Shown here: positions 2,097 through 61,510 of the stretch, piece by piece | Numbering within the stretch: the stretch's first letter is position 1 | Layout: each line of letters opens with the position of its first letter | DNA from: Mollicutes bacterium | GTDB lineage: Bacteria > Bacillota_I > Bacilli_A > Mycoplasmatales > MT37 | NCBI GenBank assembly: GCA_029976705.1 | Contig: JARVCM010000013.1 | Coordinates: 5,612-69,611, forward strand | DNA: 64,000 nucleotides | Direction: 5' to 3' | Notes under the pieces: model-generated | What the model was told of the DNA's origin: nothing | The model's input: the letters and a program-made list of their open reading frames with translations, nothing else | The model's database searches: none | Made by a program: the position numbers and the translations under genes

Positions 2097-2120
2097 TAAA
2101 AAACCTACCAATTTAAGAAA

Positions 2121-2150
2121 TCCTATTCTATCTTATTCTATCTTATTCTT
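2121..2150. repeat. 3 x 10-bp tandem repeat tc(c/t)tattct(a/t), 25-55 nt upstream of the 435..2096 gene start
   Basis: Read directly: tcctattcta tcttattcta tcttattctt. On the coding (minus) strand each unit carries a -10-like hexamer (tagaat). Confidence 0.85.
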
Positions 2151-2295
2151 GTCACAATATCAAATAATAAATAAATAATTACAAAATGCAAAAAATAAAA
2201 TCTTATCATTATTTTAAACTTTATTTAATAACTAAAATAAACTGAATTTAAACTAAATCAGTCAATAGAAAAAACTAATTATTTTAAATAGATTT

Positions 2296-2412
2296 TTAAC
2301 ATGAAAAAATGAATAATATACTGTTATCTAAAAAAAAGCAACACCAATTCCAATCGCTAATGATAGAACAAGGTAAAAATTATTAGATTCTTTTGGATTT
2401 AAATTATTTTAA
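2296..2412 (-). pseudogene. decayed C-terminal anchor fragment, paralogous to the 435..2096 protein
   Basis: Minus-strand frame reads ..LSLAIGIGVAFFLDNSILFIFSC* with no start codon. The DNA acaccaattccaat (2341-2354) is identical to the anchor-coding segment of the intact gene at about 536-549. Confidence 0.3.
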
Positions 2413-2741
2413 TTTTACTTTTTGCATTGCTTTTTGAAGGGCAAAATGTATATTCGGTTATTAAATATTTAATATTTTTTTAATTTATCAAAAATTAATA
2501 ATGTTGTTAATTATTTTTTTTAGCTTTTAATTCTGATTTGTTACAGTTGGAAGATCATTTCTTAGTATTAAATTCTTTATGAAATAAGTATTTTTTCAAT
2601 TTTTGTAAATTTAACCTAATTGTTTATACTAAAGAATTATAATATTTTAAATTTAAAATAAACTTTAATTGGGTGTGTAACAAACAGAAATAAATGAAAT
2701 TTTCAATTTAATATTAATTTCAAGGCCGAAAAGAAAATAAG

Positions 2742-3095
2742 TTATTTAACTGAAAAAAATGTTAATTCCAACACAATAAAAATATAATTAATAAATGAGA
2801 ACATGGTAACACCAATTTCAATCACTGATCATAAATCAAAATCAGAAGCATTTCGTATTTTAGGTTTTAATAATTTTAATTTTTCTTGTCACAATTCAAA
2901 ATCTTTATATTTCGTGGATGATTTTGTTTTAATTCTCACATCTTTGAAGTCATTATTCATAAAGGTTAAAATTTGAAAACAACAATTGATTTTATAATCT
3001 TTGTTTAACAATGTAAAAGAATTTACATCTAAATTTAATTCAGCAATTAATTTAAAATCTTTATTTAATCTAAATTGTACAGAATATTTTTTGTA
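2742..3095 (-). pseudogene. paralogue fragment (repeat unit plus C-terminal anchor) of the 435..2096 family, possibly still a 72-aa ORF from ATG 2960
   Basis: Code-4 open frame ..NKDFKLIAELNLDVNSFTLLNKDYK..MNNDFKDVRIKTK..DFDLWSVIEIGVTMFSFINYIFIVL..*. It resembles the GLSKIEGVDFSLLLDKSF repeat and the IGIGV anchor of the intact gene. Positions 2806-2833 are 22/27 identical to 2338-2365. Confidence 0.35.
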
Positions 3096-4065
3096 TTAAA
3101 AAAGAATTATAAAAGCTATTAATTCGGAAAATTTACTCGCATGATTAAAAATTAATTGCGGGTTTTATCTTTTTTACCAAATAGAGGATTACCTAGTGTG
3201 ATAATTTCTTTTTTAGAACTTATATTAAGCGAAAAATTCTTTTTTTTGAATCAGATAAAGTTCTGGTTTTAAATTAATTTCAATTTTTTTGTTTAAGGAA
3301 AAAGTAAAAAAATGTACCATTACCAGTCAAAAATTCTAAAAATAAAATTTGTTTTGATAAATAGTTTGTAGTTTTTTTAAAGAAATTAAAATATTTTTTT
3401 GCTGTTTAAACTTTAGTATAAAAATTGTTCAAATGAAATAGTATTTGTTTTTTAAAATTTCTTTAATTTCATATTTGAAATAAAAATTAATATGTAAAAT
3501 TATAATAAAATTAGTTAAATTAATAAGTAAAAATCAAAAAACTTCAAAATAAATTATCACCAAATAAAAATCTAAATATTATTTTCACATAAGTTAAATG
3601 TAAATTTTTTTTAAAACAAATTAAAACTCTACTGGCATCTTACTATATCCACAAAAATCAAGTATTTTCTTCGTAAAAATTGTTTAACCACTTTGTTTAG
3701 AAAAGAAAAAATAGATTCAACTTAGCAACAATGCCAAGAAAAACAAAAAAGAAAATGAACAATAAAAAATAAAGACCGAAATTAGAAATACAGATTCAAA
3801 AACGATTAATTGTCATGGTAAAAAATAAAAAATTATCAACGATTAATATTGCTTAGTTAAAAACATCACTGCGCTTACAAATTAATTTAAAAAAATAAAA
3901 ATTTTTTTTAAAAGTAACTAATCTATTTCTAAATATGAACTTAGTTGATTAAATAACCAACATTGAATCTAACAAATTATTGCACAATTACAATTTTTAA
4001 AAAATATTTTCTTAACCAAATAAAGAAAAATGTTTATTTTTTCTTTCTAATTTCTAGTAAAAAAA

Positions 4066-55821: not shown

Positions 55822-56445
55822 ATGAATAATTCAGAGTGATTAAAAAGCGGAATTATTTCAGTAATTACTGGTTGTATGTTTGCTGGTAAAACGTATGAAT
55901 TAATTCGACGATTACATGTTTTGAAACATGCACAAAAAGAAATTATTGTCTTTAATCCAAAAATAGATGAACGTTATATTCCTGGTAAAATTGTTTCTCA
56001 TAATTTTAAACTTTCGCGAATTTTTGGCATTTTAAAATCTTTTGGCGTTAAAAATAGGAATGAAGTGATTGACTTAATTACCAAATATGAAAAAATCAAC
56101 AACAAAAAAATAGACGTTATTGCCTTTGATGAAGTACAATTTTTACCAGTAGATCTTTTTGAATATATTGAAAAATGAGCACAAGCAGGAAAAATTATTA
56201 TTTGTGCTGGTTTGGATAAAGATTATGCAGATGAATATAATAGTTTAATGAGCAGACTTTTAGTGCGCGCTGATAACGTTACAAAACTTTCAGCAATTTG
56301 TGAGGTTTGCAAAGGCTTAGCACACCGCACTCAACGAATGAAAAATAATAAACCTGTTGATTATCATAATCCTAAAATTTGAATTGGTGGAAAAGAAAAT
56401 TATCAAGCCAGATGTAATTCTTGTTATAAAGAATTTTCTAAATAA
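55822..56445 (+). CDS. tdk: thymidine kinase
   Basis: GCMFAGKT P-loop, DEVQF, and the C-terminal zinc ribbon CxxC..CxxC. Confidence 0.9.
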
Positions 56446-56509
56446 ATTTAGCAAAAAAATATTTGAAAAAACAATCAATTATTAACCTATTTTTTCATTT
56501 TGTTTGCCT

Positions 56510-56538
56510 TTGTTTTGGATTAAAAATAATGATATAAT
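56510..56538 (+). promoter_or_regulatory. sigma-A-type promoter for the Cys-rich micro-ORF
   Basis: ttgttt (56510-15), a 17-bp spacer, then extended -10 tga-tataat (56530-38). Confidence 0.5.
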
Positions 56539-56563
56539 TTTCTTAGTTTTAGGAGGAAAATGT

Positions 56564-56656
56564 ATGAAAAAACAATGTTGTATAGAATGTTGTAAAAAAT
56601 GCACAAAATGCACTTGCGCAGAAGACAAATGTACTTGTTGCAAATGCAATAAATAA
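56564..56656 (+). CDS. 30-aa cysteine-rich (11 Cys), lysine-rich peptide, metallothionein-like composition
   Basis: MKKQCCIECCKKCTKCTCAEDKCTCCKCNK*. A perfect aggagg SD (56551-56) lies 7 nt upstream. It has its own promoter-like element and a terminator hairpin downstream. Confidence 0.55.
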   Translation: MKKQCCIECCKKCTKCTCAEDKCTCCKCNK

Positions 56657-56690
56657 TTTTTATTAATTTAAAAATTTATTTAGATAAATT

Positions 56691-56725
56691 CTTAATCCTC
56701 AAATTTGAGGATAAGATATTTTTTT
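56691..56725 (+). terminator. rho-independent terminator after the Cys-rich ORF
   Basis: ctta-atcctc aaattt gaggat-aag stem-loop followed by atattttttt (T7). Confidence 0.65.
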
Positions 56726-56760
56726 AACAAAAAGTTAACTTTTTGTTAAAATTTCTTCTA

Positions 56761-57825
56761 ATGTTTGATAAAAAAAAATCTGATCGTTTACTTGAAATTT
56801 TAAGTAAATATAATAAATTAGATGCTAAAGTTAAAAAATCAGCAGTAATTGCTGATTTAGACCTTTACACACAAACGAAGCGTGAAATAAAAAAAATTGA
56901 AAAAATTTCATTACTAATTGATAAGTGGAAAAAATGTCAAAAACACTTAGAAGAATGAATTCACATCAATCAAGAAGAAGTCAATTTAAAAACTTTGGCA
57001 ACAAAAGAAATCAACAATTTAAAAAAATGAATTATTAATTTAGAAAACAATATTGAAAAAACCGAAGAACAAGAAACACTAGAAAAAATCAAACACAACA
57101 CAATTATTGAAATCAGAAAGGCTGTTGGCGGAAGAGAAGCGGGTATTTTTGCTGAAGAACTTTCAAATATGTATTTTAATTTGTGCAAGCGTAAAAAATG
57201 AAAATACGAAGTTTGAGAAAAAAACTTCAATGAAGGTGAAGGTTTGAATTTAATCATTTTTTATATCAAAAACAAAGACGCTTATCCTTTATTACAACAC
57301 GAAGGTGGAGTACATCGTGTCCAAAGGATTCCAAAAACAGAAACTAATGGCAGAACACACACTTCAACAGTAACTGTGGCAATTTTAGAAGAAATTAATG
57401 AAAAAGATATGCCACTCAACGATAAAGACTTAAGAATTGACACTTTTCGTAGTAGTGGAGCGGGCGGGCAACACGTCAACACAACTGATTCAGGAGTCAG
57501 AGTTACGCATTTACCTAGTGGTTTATCAGTTGCTTGTCAAGAAGGTCGATCACAACACGATAACAAAGATAAAGCTAAAAAACTTTTAAGATCACGTTTG
57601 TCACAAATTCAAGAAAAAACAAATAATCAAAAAATTATTTCTAAACGTAATCAACAAATTGGCGAAGGAGATCGAAGTGAAAAAATTCGTACTTATAACT
57701 TTTTGCAAAATCGTGTAACTGATCATCGAATTAATTTTAGTGAAAAAAATATTAACGAAATTATGAACGGTAAATTAGATAAAATTCTCAATCAATTAAT
57801 GGTTTTAAATGATACAAAAAAATAA
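56761..57825 (+). CDS. prfA: peptide chain release factor 1
   Basis: MFDK.. N-terminus, RVQRIPKTETNGRTHTS and the SGAGGQHVNTTDS (GGQ) motif. An RF1-only set fits a code-4 organism. Confidence 0.92.
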
Positions 57826-61118: not shown

Positions 61119-61213
61119 ATTTATTTTACTTTTGCTTTTTTAAATTATTAAAAATATGATAAAATTACTACTTTTCTCGTTTATATAAAAAGCAGAAAAT
61201 TAAAAATTATAAA

Positions 61214-61510
61214 ATGGAATTAAGAATAATATTAACAATTGCTGTTATTTATGGGGGCGTTTTTTTAGTCATTCTGGCTTGTGCTGTCTACGCTATTTGT
61301 AATTTAAAAATGATCAATAAAAATCAACGTGACCGAGAACAATTAACGAAAGAAATTTTAAAAAACAGCAACAAAATAACTAAAAATAAAATAGATGATG
61401 ATAAAAAAGTAATAAAAAATAAAATAAAAGATGGAATAAATATGACAAAAAGTAAGATAAAAATTGCAATAAAAACGACTAAAAATAAGATAAAAAATAT
61501 AAATGAATAA
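61214..61510 (+). CDS. small N-terminally anchored Lys/Asn-rich protein with TKNKI repeats
   Basis: TM IILTIAVIYGGVFLVILACAVYAI, then KITKNKI..VIKNKIK..TKSKIK..TTKNKIKN. The stop overlaps the start of the next gene (atgaataa). Confidence 0.5.
   Translation: MELRIILTIAVIYGGVFLVILACAVYAICNLKMINKNQRDREQLTKEILKNSNKITKNKIDDDKKVIKNKIKDGINMTKSKIKIAIKTTKNKIKNINE

What the first reader, a model, noticed from the sequence alone, without database searches (positions are those of the whole stretch)
56510..56725. Self-contained expression unit for a 30-aa peptide with 11 cysteines
The 315-bp gap between tdk and prfA holds a complete, well-formed transcription unit.
- It has a -35 ttgttt, a 17-bp spacer and an extended -10 tgatataat.
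- A perfect aggagg SD lies 7 nt before the ATG, far stronger than the SDs of most neighbouring genes.
- The ORF reads MKKQCCIECCKKCTKCTCAEDKCTCCKCNK, with spacing CC-x2-CC-x2-C-x2-C-x-C-x4-C-x-CC-x-C. It has 8 Lys and no hydrophobic core.
- TAA is followed by a hairpin plus T7 terminator.

In a genome this AT-rich, 11 TGT/TGC codons in 90 nt is very unlikely to be noise. The composition resembles metallothionein-type thiolate-cluster peptides, and no modification or export genes lie next to it. I know of no described Mollicute metallothionein or comparable Cys-rich micro-protein. It would be missed by standard ORF length cut-offs; the supplied track lists nothing below 60 aa.
Basis: partly seen in the sequence, partly recalled or inferred. 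Interest (0 to 1): 0.7.

Follow-up and report, generated by a model that had tools for sequence, protein, structure and literature searches.

The report
Unannotated 11-cysteine micro-protein gene
A tiny, never-annotated gene for a 30-residue peptide that is one-third cysteine sits, with its own promoter, ribosome-binding site and terminator, between two housekeeping genes of a severely genome-reduced deep-sea-coral mollicute; a similar gene lies nearby in a related coral bacterium, and it most likely makes a metallothionein-like metal- or thiol-buffering peptide, which is untested.

Summary
Window 56564-56656 (+) encodes MKKQCCIECCKKCTKCTCAEDKCTCCKCNK (11 Cys, 8 Lys). It has an extended -10 (TGATATAAT), a perfect AGGAGG 7 nt before the ATG, and a hairpin plus T7 terminator.

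- **Setting.** GC is 25% and TGA codes for Trp. Only 3 of 62 genes have an SD core of 5 nt or more. Cysteine is 0.9% of codons, so the ORF is an extreme outlier.
- **Organism.** It is a Callogorgia delta coral mollicute, probably Ca. Thalassoplasma callogorgiae.
- **Databases.** Nothing matches in Pfam, NCBIfam, PDB or two billion-scale protein sets. No gene caller has ever called it.
- **Relatives.** In all 8 available relatives tdk abuts or overlaps prfA, so the 315-bp unit is lineage-specific at this position.
- **Second example.** The most syntenic relative, a coral-metagenome contig, carries an uncalled sORF about 2 kb upstream, between DHH and asnS. It has the same composition (37 aa, 11 Cys, 8 Lys), the strongest SD of its locus, a TATAAT box, and the same 6 TGT : 5 TGC codon skew.

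I conclude this is a real, translated Cys/Lys-rich micro-protein gene (about 0.8). It is most likely a stand-alone metallothionein-like peptide. Its Cys pattern aligns with the 11-Cys vertebrate MT alpha-domain (z 4.1). Function is inferred, not shown.

The parts
56447..56475 (+). Copy 1 of a 29-nt direct repeat, starting 2 nt after the tdk stop. It is a decayed twin of the sORF translation-start region (AGGAGG becomes AGCAAA, ATG becomes TTG). It heads a TTG ORF, MKKQSIINLFFHFVCLCFGLKIMI, that is probably not expressed.
   Evidence: 24 of 29 nt identical to 56548-56576, z 7.5 against shuffles.
56510..56515 (+). Weak -35-like hexamer TTGTTT (3 of 6 matches to TTGACA), 17 bp upstream of the -10.
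   Evidence: sequence. Not listed by the consensus scan.
56530..56538 (+). Extended -10 promoter element TGATATAAT. The predicted transcription start is near 56545.
   Evidence: one of only 5 perfect TGNTATAAT sites in the window. Other intergenic TGNTA[TA]AAT sites lie 7-56 nt before gene starts.
56551..56556 (+). Shine-Dalgarno sequence AGGAGG, 7 nt before the ATG.
   Evidence: one of the four strongest SDs among the 62 gene starts surveyed plus this sORF (6-nt core, equalled only by two annotated genes). 26 genes have no SD at all.
56564..56656 (+). sORF, ATG to TAA, encoding MKKQCCIECCKKCTKCTCAEDKCTCCKCNK (30 aa, 11 Cys, 8 Lys, no aromatic residue or His).
   Evidence: TGC makes up 5 of 11 Cys codons against an 11% genome background (p 0.005).
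56690..56725 (+). Intrinsic terminator: an 11-bp bulged hairpin (56690-56716) followed by T7 (56719-56725). It probably also ends tdk read-through transcripts.
   Evidence: The one strain SNP in the spacer (56694 A>T in L006) only shifts the bulge.
56722..56752 (+). Adjacent and not part of the unit: a perfect 30-nt palindrome (56722-56751) overlapping the predicted prfA promoter TTAACA-17-TAAAAT (TG-extended; the -10 ends at 56752). The -10 ends 8-9 nt before the prfA ATG at 56761, so prfA has its own, nearly leaderless, start.

Best explanation
The unit is a real, independently transcribed and efficiently translated gene for a 30-residue Cys/Lys-rich micro-protein. It belongs to a small lineage-restricted group of such peptides in marine-invertebrate mollicutes.

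Most likely mechanism (inferred):
- The apo-peptide is unstructured.
- Its 11 thiolates (CC, CxC and CxxC motifs) wrap metal ions into a metal-thiolate cluster. The cluster would be of the M(II)4Cys11 type, as in the vertebrate metallothionein alpha-domain, or a Cu(I) cluster.
- The 8 lysines neutralise the negative cluster charge.
- In the cell it would buffer or sequester Zn/Cu/Cd and scavenge oxidants.
- This would be useful to a wall-less symbiont in coral mesoglea, which is patrolled by phagocytic amoebocytes.

Shown by sequence: the promoter, SD, ORF and terminator; the outlier composition; the codon skew; and the second example in a relative. Inferred: transcription, translation, metal binding and physiological role.
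For: **(1) Expression signals.**
- They fit the genome's own usage and are exceptionally strong.

**(2) Cys density.**
- It is far outside the chance distribution of the window.

**(3) Second instance.** L301:3408-3521 lies on a collinear coral-metagenome contig whose PrfA is 53% identical.
- It is intergenic, in the same orientation as its neighbours, and 37 aa long.
- It also has exactly 11 Cys and 8 Lys.
- It has the best SD of its locus (GGGGGGTGA) and a perfect TATAAT 28 nt before the ATG.
- It is the only Cys-rich sORF in about 103 kb of relatives' DNA.

**(4) Codon skew.**
- Both sORFs use TGC for 5 of 11 Cys, against 11% and 10% in their genomes (p 0.005 and 0.003).
- This fits selection on decoding.

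**(5) Metallothionein sequence criteria.**
- 37% Cys; no Phe, Tyr, Trp or His.
- Three CC, three CxC and three CxxC motifs, with Lys next to Cys.

**(6) Alignment to the human MT2A alpha-domain (11 Cys, PDB 1MHU).**
- A global alignment pairs 10 of 11 Cys.
- z is 4.1 against composition-preserving shuffles (3 of 3000 reach it).
- BLASTP finds AEDKCTCC against ASDKCSCC.

**(7) Genome context.**
- The host genome is among the most reduced mollicute genomes: 445 kb, 385 genes, 87.6% coding (PMC11535214).
- A 315-bp insertion that splits the otherwise tightly coupled tdk-prfA pair is unlikely to persist as junk.

**(8) Neighbours.**
- There are no modification or export genes nearby.
Against: - There is no transcript, ribosome or peptide evidence.
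- No homologue was found in 1.84 billion representatives (phmmer) or in 5.8 billion proteins (word search). Pfam, NCBIfam and PDB sequences also gave nothing.
- The unit is absent from the tdk-prfA junction of all 8 relatives.
- The two peptides align no better than shuffled sequences (z 0.16). Homology between them is therefore unproven, and they could be independent K-C repeat expansions.
- Same-species assemblies are 99.1-99.9% identical, so there is no power for dN/dS.
- The alpha-domain resemblance was noticed post hoc and is not shared by the L301 peptide (z 0.67).
- Cys-rich frames also arise as off-frame artefacts of low-complexity DNA.
Confidence: 0.45

Rival explanations
1. A young, lineage-specific (de novo or repeat-expanded) sORF. 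It is transcribed and perhaps translated but has no settled function. It would have arisen from slippage of AAA-TGY (Lys-Cys) and AATGTTGTA units inside a duplicated piece of the tdk 3' flank.
For: - The unit is absent at this position in 8 relatives.
- There are no homologues anywhere.
- The ORF contains internal short repeats: AATGTTGTA twice and AAAATGCAC twice.
- The 29-nt duplication of the start region lies right after tdk.
- The two peptides share composition but not positions.
Against: - A second sORF with the same 11 Cys, 8 Lys and 6:5 codon split, and equally strong signals, exists in a relative.
- The genome is severely reduced and 88-90% coding.
- A perfect SD in a genome that hardly uses SDs argues for selection on expression.
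Confidence: 0.2
2. A cysteine-sensing regulatory leader. Ribosomes would stall on the 11 Cys codons when Cys-tRNA is scarce, changing termination at the downstream hairpin or the stability of the asnS-tdk message. That would tune expression of neighbouring translation genes (prfA-prmC here, asnS in L301).
For: - There is precedent: polycysteine leaderless sORFs act as Cys-responsive attenuators in mycobacteria (bioRxiv 10.1101/834739).
- Both sORFs sit directly upstream of a translation-factor or synthetase gene.
- A terminator lies between the sORF and prfA.
Against: - The downstream genes are not cysteine-related.
- The minimum-energy and centroid folds show the terminator forming independently, with no antiterminator pairing to the ORF.
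- prfA has its own extended -10 promoter after the terminator and no SD to sequester.
- L301 has no G+C-rich terminator after its sORF.
- A leader needs only a few Cys codons, not 11 with MT-like spacing and 8 Lys.
Confidence: 0.08
3. A different cysteine-based chemistry: a mini iron-sulfur or zinc-knuckle basic peptide that binds nucleic acid or the ribosome, or a cationic disulfide-rich (defensin-like or RiPP-like) released peptide.
For: - The CKKCTKC stretch is a CxxCxxC motif.
- Net charge is +5.
- AlphaFold2 on the single sequence gives a helix plus beta-hairpin with mean pLDDT 81.
Against: - There is no signal peptide, leader peptide or neighbouring maturase or exporter.
- No structural match was found in the PDB.
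- No family match was found.
- 11 Cys in 30 residues far exceeds what one Fe-S or Zn site needs.
Confidence: 0.07
4. Not a gene. The Cys-rich frame would be a by-product of AT-rich low-complexity spacer DNA, and the hairpin would simply be the tdk terminator.
For: - Cys-rich reading frames are common artefacts of repetitive DNA in large collections.
- No gene caller has ever reported it.
Against: - The ATG, a perfect SD at ideal spacing, an extended -10 and a terminator all coincide.
- It is an extreme outlier within its own genome.
- There is a second example in a relative.
- The spacer is 315 bp where relatives need 0-21 bp.
Confidence: 0.1

Closest known systems
Vertebrate metallothionein alpha-domain (e.g. 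human MT2A residues 31-61, PDB 1MHU; M(II)4Cys11 cluster)
   Same: - Size: about 30 residues with exactly 11 Cys.
- Cys layout: an N-terminal CC..CC, central CxxC and CxC, a short acidic/Lys linker (AEDK against ASDK), then CxCC.
- Lys flanks the Cys residues, and there are no aromatic residues.
- 10 of 11 Cys can be aligned (z 4.1).
   Different: - Here it is a stand-alone bacterial peptide, not half of a two-domain protein.
- There is no detectable homology: Pfam and phmmer give nothing.
- The second family member (L301) does not share the pattern.
- The resemblance is probably convergent.
Fungal single-domain copper metallothioneins (Neurospora crassa type, about 25 aa with 7 Cys; PDB 1M0G appears)
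   Same: A very small, single-domain, Cys-rich peptide without aromatic residues that forms one metal-thiolate cluster.
   Different: Fewer Cys, Gly/Ser-rich rather than Lys-rich, and eukaryotic. No sequence relationship was tested beyond PDB phmmer, which found no hit.
Bacterial metallothioneins: SmtA/BmtA family (cyanobacteria, Pseudomonas) and mycobacterial MymT
   Same: Small bacterial Cys-rich metal-sequestering proteins. MymT protects an intracellular bacterium from host copper (reviews PMC7558416 and PMC7387436).
   Different: They are 50-80 aa and 10-20% Cys. SmtA uses His and has a zinc-finger-like fold. No Pfam or NCBIfam match was found here. None is described in Mollicutes.
Mycobacterial polycysteine leaderless sORF attenuators (Canestrari et al., bioRxiv 10.1101/834739)
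   Same: Unannotated, very short, Cys-codon-rich ORFs at the head of transcription units.
   Different: Those sORFs precede cysteine-metabolism operons and act through ribosome stalling that unmasks a downstream RBS. Here the neighbours are tdk/prfA or asnS, a terminator and a separate promoter intervene, and the peptide has MT-like spacing and 8 Lys.

Membership tests
Metallothionein (operational class: low mass, Cys-rich, metal-thiolate clusters) | Low molecular mass and high Cys content (roughly 15-35%) in CC, CxC and CxxC motifs. | tested here: met
   30 aa and 37% Cys, with three CC, three CxC and three CxxC motifs.
Metallothionein (operational class: low mass, Cys-rich, metal-thiolate clusters) | Few or no aromatic residues or His; basic residues next to Cys. 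| tested here: met
   No F, Y, W or H, and 8 Lys, most of them adjacent to Cys (composition).
Metallothionein (operational class: low mass, Cys-rich, metal-thiolate clusters) | Binds several metal ions in thiolate clusters with defined stoichiometry. | not testable with these tools
   Needs a metal titration of the peptide with ESI-MS or ICP-MS.
Curated metallothionein sequence families (Pfam Metallothio families, Metallothio_Pro/SmtA, NCBIfam) | A significant match to the family profile. | tested here: not met
   No families at E up to 10 for either peptide. No PDB sequence hit for the window peptide.
Vertebrate MT alpha-domain | 11 Cys in about 31 residues with the pattern CCxCCx3Cx2Cx3CxCx6CxCC. 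| tested here: inconclusive
   The Cys number is the same. 10 of 11 Cys align if three gaps are allowed (z 4.1, 3 of 3000 shuffles). The spacing is not identical, the comparison was post hoc, and the L301 peptide gives z 0.67.
Polycysteine / amino-acid-sensing leader peptide attenuator | Located at the 5' end of an operon for metabolism of the sensed amino acid. | tested here: not met
   The downstream genes are prfA, prmC, nfo, nusB and metK (window) and asnS (L301).
Polycysteine / amino-acid-sensing leader peptide attenuator | Alternative RNA pairing that links ribosome position in the sORF to a terminator or to the downstream RBS. | tested here: not met
   The terminator folds on its own and no antiterminator appears in the MFE or centroid fold. 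prfA has no SD and has its own promoter.
RiPP precursor (lanthipeptide, sactipeptide, ranthipeptide, SCIFF) | A neighbouring maturase or radical-SAM enzyme or transporter, and a leader peptide. | tested here: not met
   The neighbours are asnS, tdk, prfA and prmC. No NCBIfam precursor-family hit was found.

The most novel reading that the evidence does not exclude
The marine-invertebrate mollicutes with the smallest genomes carry an unrecognised family of stand-alone metallothioneins of about 30-37 residues, each with 11 Cys and 8 Lys.

- The members would mimic, or possibly derive from, the animal MT alpha-domain.
- They would be expressed from their own strong signals.
- They would evolve by Lys-Cys codon-repeat slippage so fast that only composition and Cys number are conserved.

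This would be the first metallothionein in Mollicutes and the smallest bacterial one. It would also show that a Cys count, rather than a sequence, can be the conserved trait.
Probability: 0.3. Interest if true: 0.7.

Novelty: new variant of a known kind. Interest (0 to 1): 0.55.

Why it matters
- **Gene inventory.** Genomes of 445 kb with about 385 genes are used to reason about minimal gene sets and symbiont dependence. A strongly signalled gene that every annotation pipeline misses shows that the inventory is incomplete exactly where small proteins are concerned.
- **New to Mollicutes.** If the peptide binds metals, it would be the first metallothionein-type protein in Mollicutes. It would also be a very compact natural 11-Cys module.
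- **Host biology.** It would point to metal or oxidant stress as a selective force on bacteria living in coral mesoglea.
- **Search method.** The pair of peptides shares Cys and Lys counts but not an alignable sequence. That makes a useful test case for finding families by composition rather than by homology.

Tried and rejected
**Searches that found no homologue**
- Exact-product look-ups for the peptide and its start-codon variants found nothing on record.
- phmmer of the 30-mer against 1.84 billion representatives gave 0 hits.
- The word-indexed search needs at least 40 aa. A tandem-doubled query found no candidate sharing three 5-mers.
- Pfam, NCBIfam and PDB sequence searches gave nothing for the window peptide. 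For the L301 peptide, PDB gave only two non-significant hits.
- Rfam gave no family in the spacer.
- blastn of the 315-bp spacer against plasmids and phages gave only short AT-rich matches.
- AlphaFold2 on the single sequence followed by Foldseek against the PDB gave no match.

**Pattern scans**
- A first scan of GTDB genomes with Tdk 8-mers found no relative.
- An exact Cys-spacing DNA pattern with 7 Cys returned mostly off-frame low-complexity artefacts in viral contigs.
- An 8-Cys pattern gave 0 viral hits, 31 GTDB hits and 91 metagenome hits. None was a mollicute-like small ORF.
- These scans could not have seen the L301 peptide, because its Cys spacing differs.

**Tests that lacked power or were blocked**
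- A dN/dS or population test is impossible. The other assemblies of the species are 99.1-99.9% identical, with a single spacer SNP.
I worked around this with ids from the homologue searches.

**Ideas rejected**
- Attenuator: there is no antiterminator, and prfA has its own promoter.
- RiPP: there is no maturase.
- Lipoprotein or secreted peptide: there is no signal sequence.
- Antisense or other-frame coding: the 55-aa minus-strand ORF would span the SD and the promoter.

Full report
**1. What is in the sequence**

The window is 25.1% G+C and reads TGA as Trp. One example is the AsnRS motif SEFWMIEPE. It carries a class-B RNase P RNA.

tdk (Pfam TK) ends at 56445. prfA (PCRF and RF-1 domains) starts at 56761. 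The gap between them is 315 bp. Inside it, on the + strand, lie the following features.
- A weak -35-like TTGTTT at 56510-56515.
- After 17 bp, an extended -10 TGATATAAT at 56530-56538.
- AGGAGG at 56551-56556.
- After 7 nt, an ATG at 56564.
- A 30-codon ORF ending in TAA at 56654-56656: MKKQCCIECCKKCTKCTCAEDKCTCCKCNK.
- An 11-bp bulged hairpin at 56690-56716, followed by T7 at 56719-56725.

The only caveat is that the -35 matches the consensus at just 3 of 6 positions, so the consensus scan did not report this promoter.

**2. Is it more than chance?**

- All 11 TGY triplets of the 93 nt are in one frame.
- Across all six frames of the 64 kb, no other 30-codon window has more than 8 Cys.
- No other start-to-stop ORF of 25 aa or more exceeds 17% Cys, against 37% here.
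- The 59 window genes in the codon count use only 176 Cys codons in 18,989 (0.93%). A binomial estimate gives about 1.5e-6 expected windows of this density per 64 kb.

The expression signals are unusual for this genome.
- Of 62 gene starts, 26 have no SD-like core and only 3 have 5 nt or more.
- AGGAGG occurs six times on both strands, and only this copy precedes an intergenic ATG.
- Promoters here are of the extended -10 type. TGNTA[TA]AAT boxes lie 7-56 nt before several gene starts, so many mRNAs are leaderless or nearly so. The sORF's box is one of five perfect TGNTATAAT sites.
- The predicted transcript (about 56545-56725) folds with the terminator as an independent element.

**3. Which organism?**

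- Contigs 99.6-99.9% identical to the window come from samples named VOHS20-1, including SAMN12856805.
- BioSamples SAMN12856800-807 are the Callogorgia delta (deep-sea octocoral) metagenomes of Vohsen et al. 2024 (PMC11535214).
- That paper describes two mollicutes: Ca. Oceanoplasma callogorgiae (31.0% GC) and Ca. Thalassoplasma callogorgiae (24.9% GC, 445 kb, 385 protein genes, 87.6% coding).
- The 25% GC of the window fits the latter. This is an inference.
- The bacteria probably live in the mesoglea, a site of coral immune defence.

**4. Relatives and conservation**

- The other assemblies of the species carry the same spacer. The single substitution (56694 A>T, in L006) only moves the bulge of the terminator stem.
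- Divergence is far too low for any test of selection.
- The next relatives are distant: Tdk 55-58% and PrfA 50-61% identical.
- In all eight relatives (L002-L005, L298, L300, L301, L302), tdk and prfA are 9-21 bp apart or overlap.
- The 315-bp unit is therefore an insertion specific to this lineage.

Scanning those loci for Cys-rich small ORFs nevertheless gave one striking hit. L301 is a coral-metagenome contig collinear with the window (DUF2179-DHH-asnS-tdk-prfA-prmC-...-nfo-nusB-metK-SNF). In the 333-bp DHH/asnS gap it has an uncalled ORF at 3408-3521: MVFFSCCKKKDSCCNDSKANGKCKCEGKCQCTDCKCC.
- It is 37 aa long, with 11 Cys and 8 Lys.
- GGGGGGTGA lies just upstream, the best SD of that locus.
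- A perfect TATAAT lies 28 nt before the ATG.
- Nothing comparable occurs in the other roughly 86 kb of relatives' DNA.

The two peptides have identical Cys and Lys counts and the same 6 TGT: 5 TGC split. Their genomes use TGC for only 11% and 10% of Cys codons (p 0.005 and 0.003). Yet they align no better than shuffled sequences (z 0.16). They are compositional equivalents. Common descent with rapid repeat slippage is plausible but not shown.

**5. Database status**

- Neither peptide is on record in any start-codon variant.
- phmmer against 1.84 billion representatives and a word-indexed search of 5.8 billion proteins found nothing.
- Pfam, NCBIfam and PDB sequence searches also found nothing significant.
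- Exact Cys-spacing DNA patterns were scanned over IMG/VR, GTDB genomes and JGI metagenomes. They returned off-frame artefacts of repetitive DNA and unrelated Cys-rich tails, and no mollicute sORF.
- Those scans demand identical spacing and would have missed L301, so they are weak negatives.
- A literature search found no mollicute metallothionein.

**6. How it most likely works**

The peptide meets every sequence criterion of the metallothionein class.
- It is tiny and 37% Cys.
- The Cys residues lie in CC, CxC and CxxC motifs.
- It has no aromatic residue or His.
- Lys residues flank the Cys residues.

Its Cys layout, CC-x2-CC-x2-C-x2-C-x-C-x4-C-x-CC-x-C, parallels the vertebrate alpha-domain. 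That domain is an independently folding 31-residue unit with 11 Cys that holds four divalent ions (established knowledge). I verified the recalled sequence against PDB 1MHU and 4MT2.
- A global alignment pairs 10 of 11 Cys, with z 4.1 against composition-preserving shuffles.
- BLASTP aligns AEDKCTCC with ASDKCSCC.
- I treat this as convergent resemblance. The comparison was post hoc, and the L301 peptide does not share it.

The inferred mechanism has three parts.
- A strongly expressed apo-peptide folds around Zn, Cd or Cu ions as a thiolate cluster.
- The lysines balance the cluster charge.
- The peptide buffers metals and oxidants for a wall-less symbiont exposed to host phagocytes.

Transcription, translation and metal binding are all inferred.

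**7. Rivals**

- **Young repeat-born sORF with no settled function (0.2).** In favour: it is lineage-restricted at this position, it has internal repeats, and the start region is a 29-nt duplicate of the DNA right after tdk. Against: the second example, and the economy of a 445-kb genome.
- **Cys-sensing leader, as in mycobacteria (0.08; bioRxiv 10.1101/834739).** Against: the neighbours are not Cys genes, no antiterminator is predicted, and prfA has its own promoter and no SD.
- **Other Cys chemistry or a released peptide (0.07).** There is no maturase, exporter or signal sequence nearby.
- **Not a gene (0.1).** This is contradicted by the coincidence of signals and by L301.

**8. Verdict**

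This is a real and well-observed feature. It is very probably an unannotated micro-protein gene. Its function is plausibly metallothionein-like but untested. It is not a member of any known family by sequence. I class it as a new variant of a known kind and score interest at 0.55.

Noticed in passing
L301:3374-3521 (coral-metagenome contig ERZ922781 k127_750389): An uncalled sORF, MVFFSCCKKKDSCCNDSKANGKCKCEGKCQCTDCKCC (11 Cys, 8 Lys), with a TATAAT box and a G-rich SD. It lies in the DHH/asnS gap of a relative collinear with the window. An upstream in-frame ATG at 3387 could make it a 44-aa leaderless product instead.
   Followed up: yes
window 57028-57371 (prfA): Differences between strains of the same species cluster in prfA. 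10 of the 12 substitutions against L006, and all 6 against L007 and L008, fall in this 344-bp stretch. The other roughly 8 kb are almost identical. This could be a recombination patch or selection on RF1.
   Followed up: partly
window 56722-56751: A perfect 30-nt palindrome (TTTTAACAAAAAGTT/AACTTTTTGTTAAAA) overlaps the predicted prfA promoter. The -10 ends 8-9 nt before the prfA ATG at 56761, so prfA looks leaderless. The palindrome might be an operator or a second, AT-only hairpin.
   Followed up: partly
window 56447-56475 and 56548-56576: A 29-nt direct repeat (83% identical, z 7.5). The sORF's SD, ATG and first codons are duplicated right after the tdk stop. There the copy has lost the SD and the ATG, and it heads a TTG ORF, MKKQSIINLFFHFVCLCFGLKIMI.
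   Followed up: partly
window 2097-4065: About 2 kb without any long ORF in code 4. G+C is 18.6%, with only short AT-rich tandem repeats and no Rfam hit. This is an odd stretch for a genome that is about 88-90% coding.
   Followed up: partly
window 61119-61502 (20-bp indel at 61326-61345 in L006): A 384-bp gap between metK and the SNF-family transporter. It has an extended -10 at 61157 and a strain-variable 20-bp indel. Relatives have a small gene (66-82 aa) at this position.
   Followed up: no
L214, L220, L226, L227, L231, L244, L249, L268, L273, L284, L288, L296 (gut metagenome contigs): A recurrent frame of about 40 codons, ...DTCCLSCCVSCEPCKCC(SSE/CTK)CEHCHEEHCYGRD, is conserved with a few substitutions across at least 12 contigs of about 40% GC. 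It may be another unannotated Cys-rich small protein or an off-frame of a conserved gene.
   Followed up: no
L162:1851-1892 (IMG/VR contig 3300012973_000014): A small viral-contig ORF, MLTMENHDCCCEHCCGGCPGCACENKEKEDSK, with charged ends. Among the pattern hits it is the only one that looks like a genuine Cys-rich micro-protein.
   Followed up: no
L176, L187, L189, L191, L196, L201, L202, L206 (Streptomyces/Kitasatospora): Proteins of about 380-480 aa end in a conserved tail, ...EDPW(T/S)RER...CCDGC(E/D)CCG(E/D/N)CC.GCDGCDCC..., that is extremely rich in Cys and Asp.
   Followed up: no
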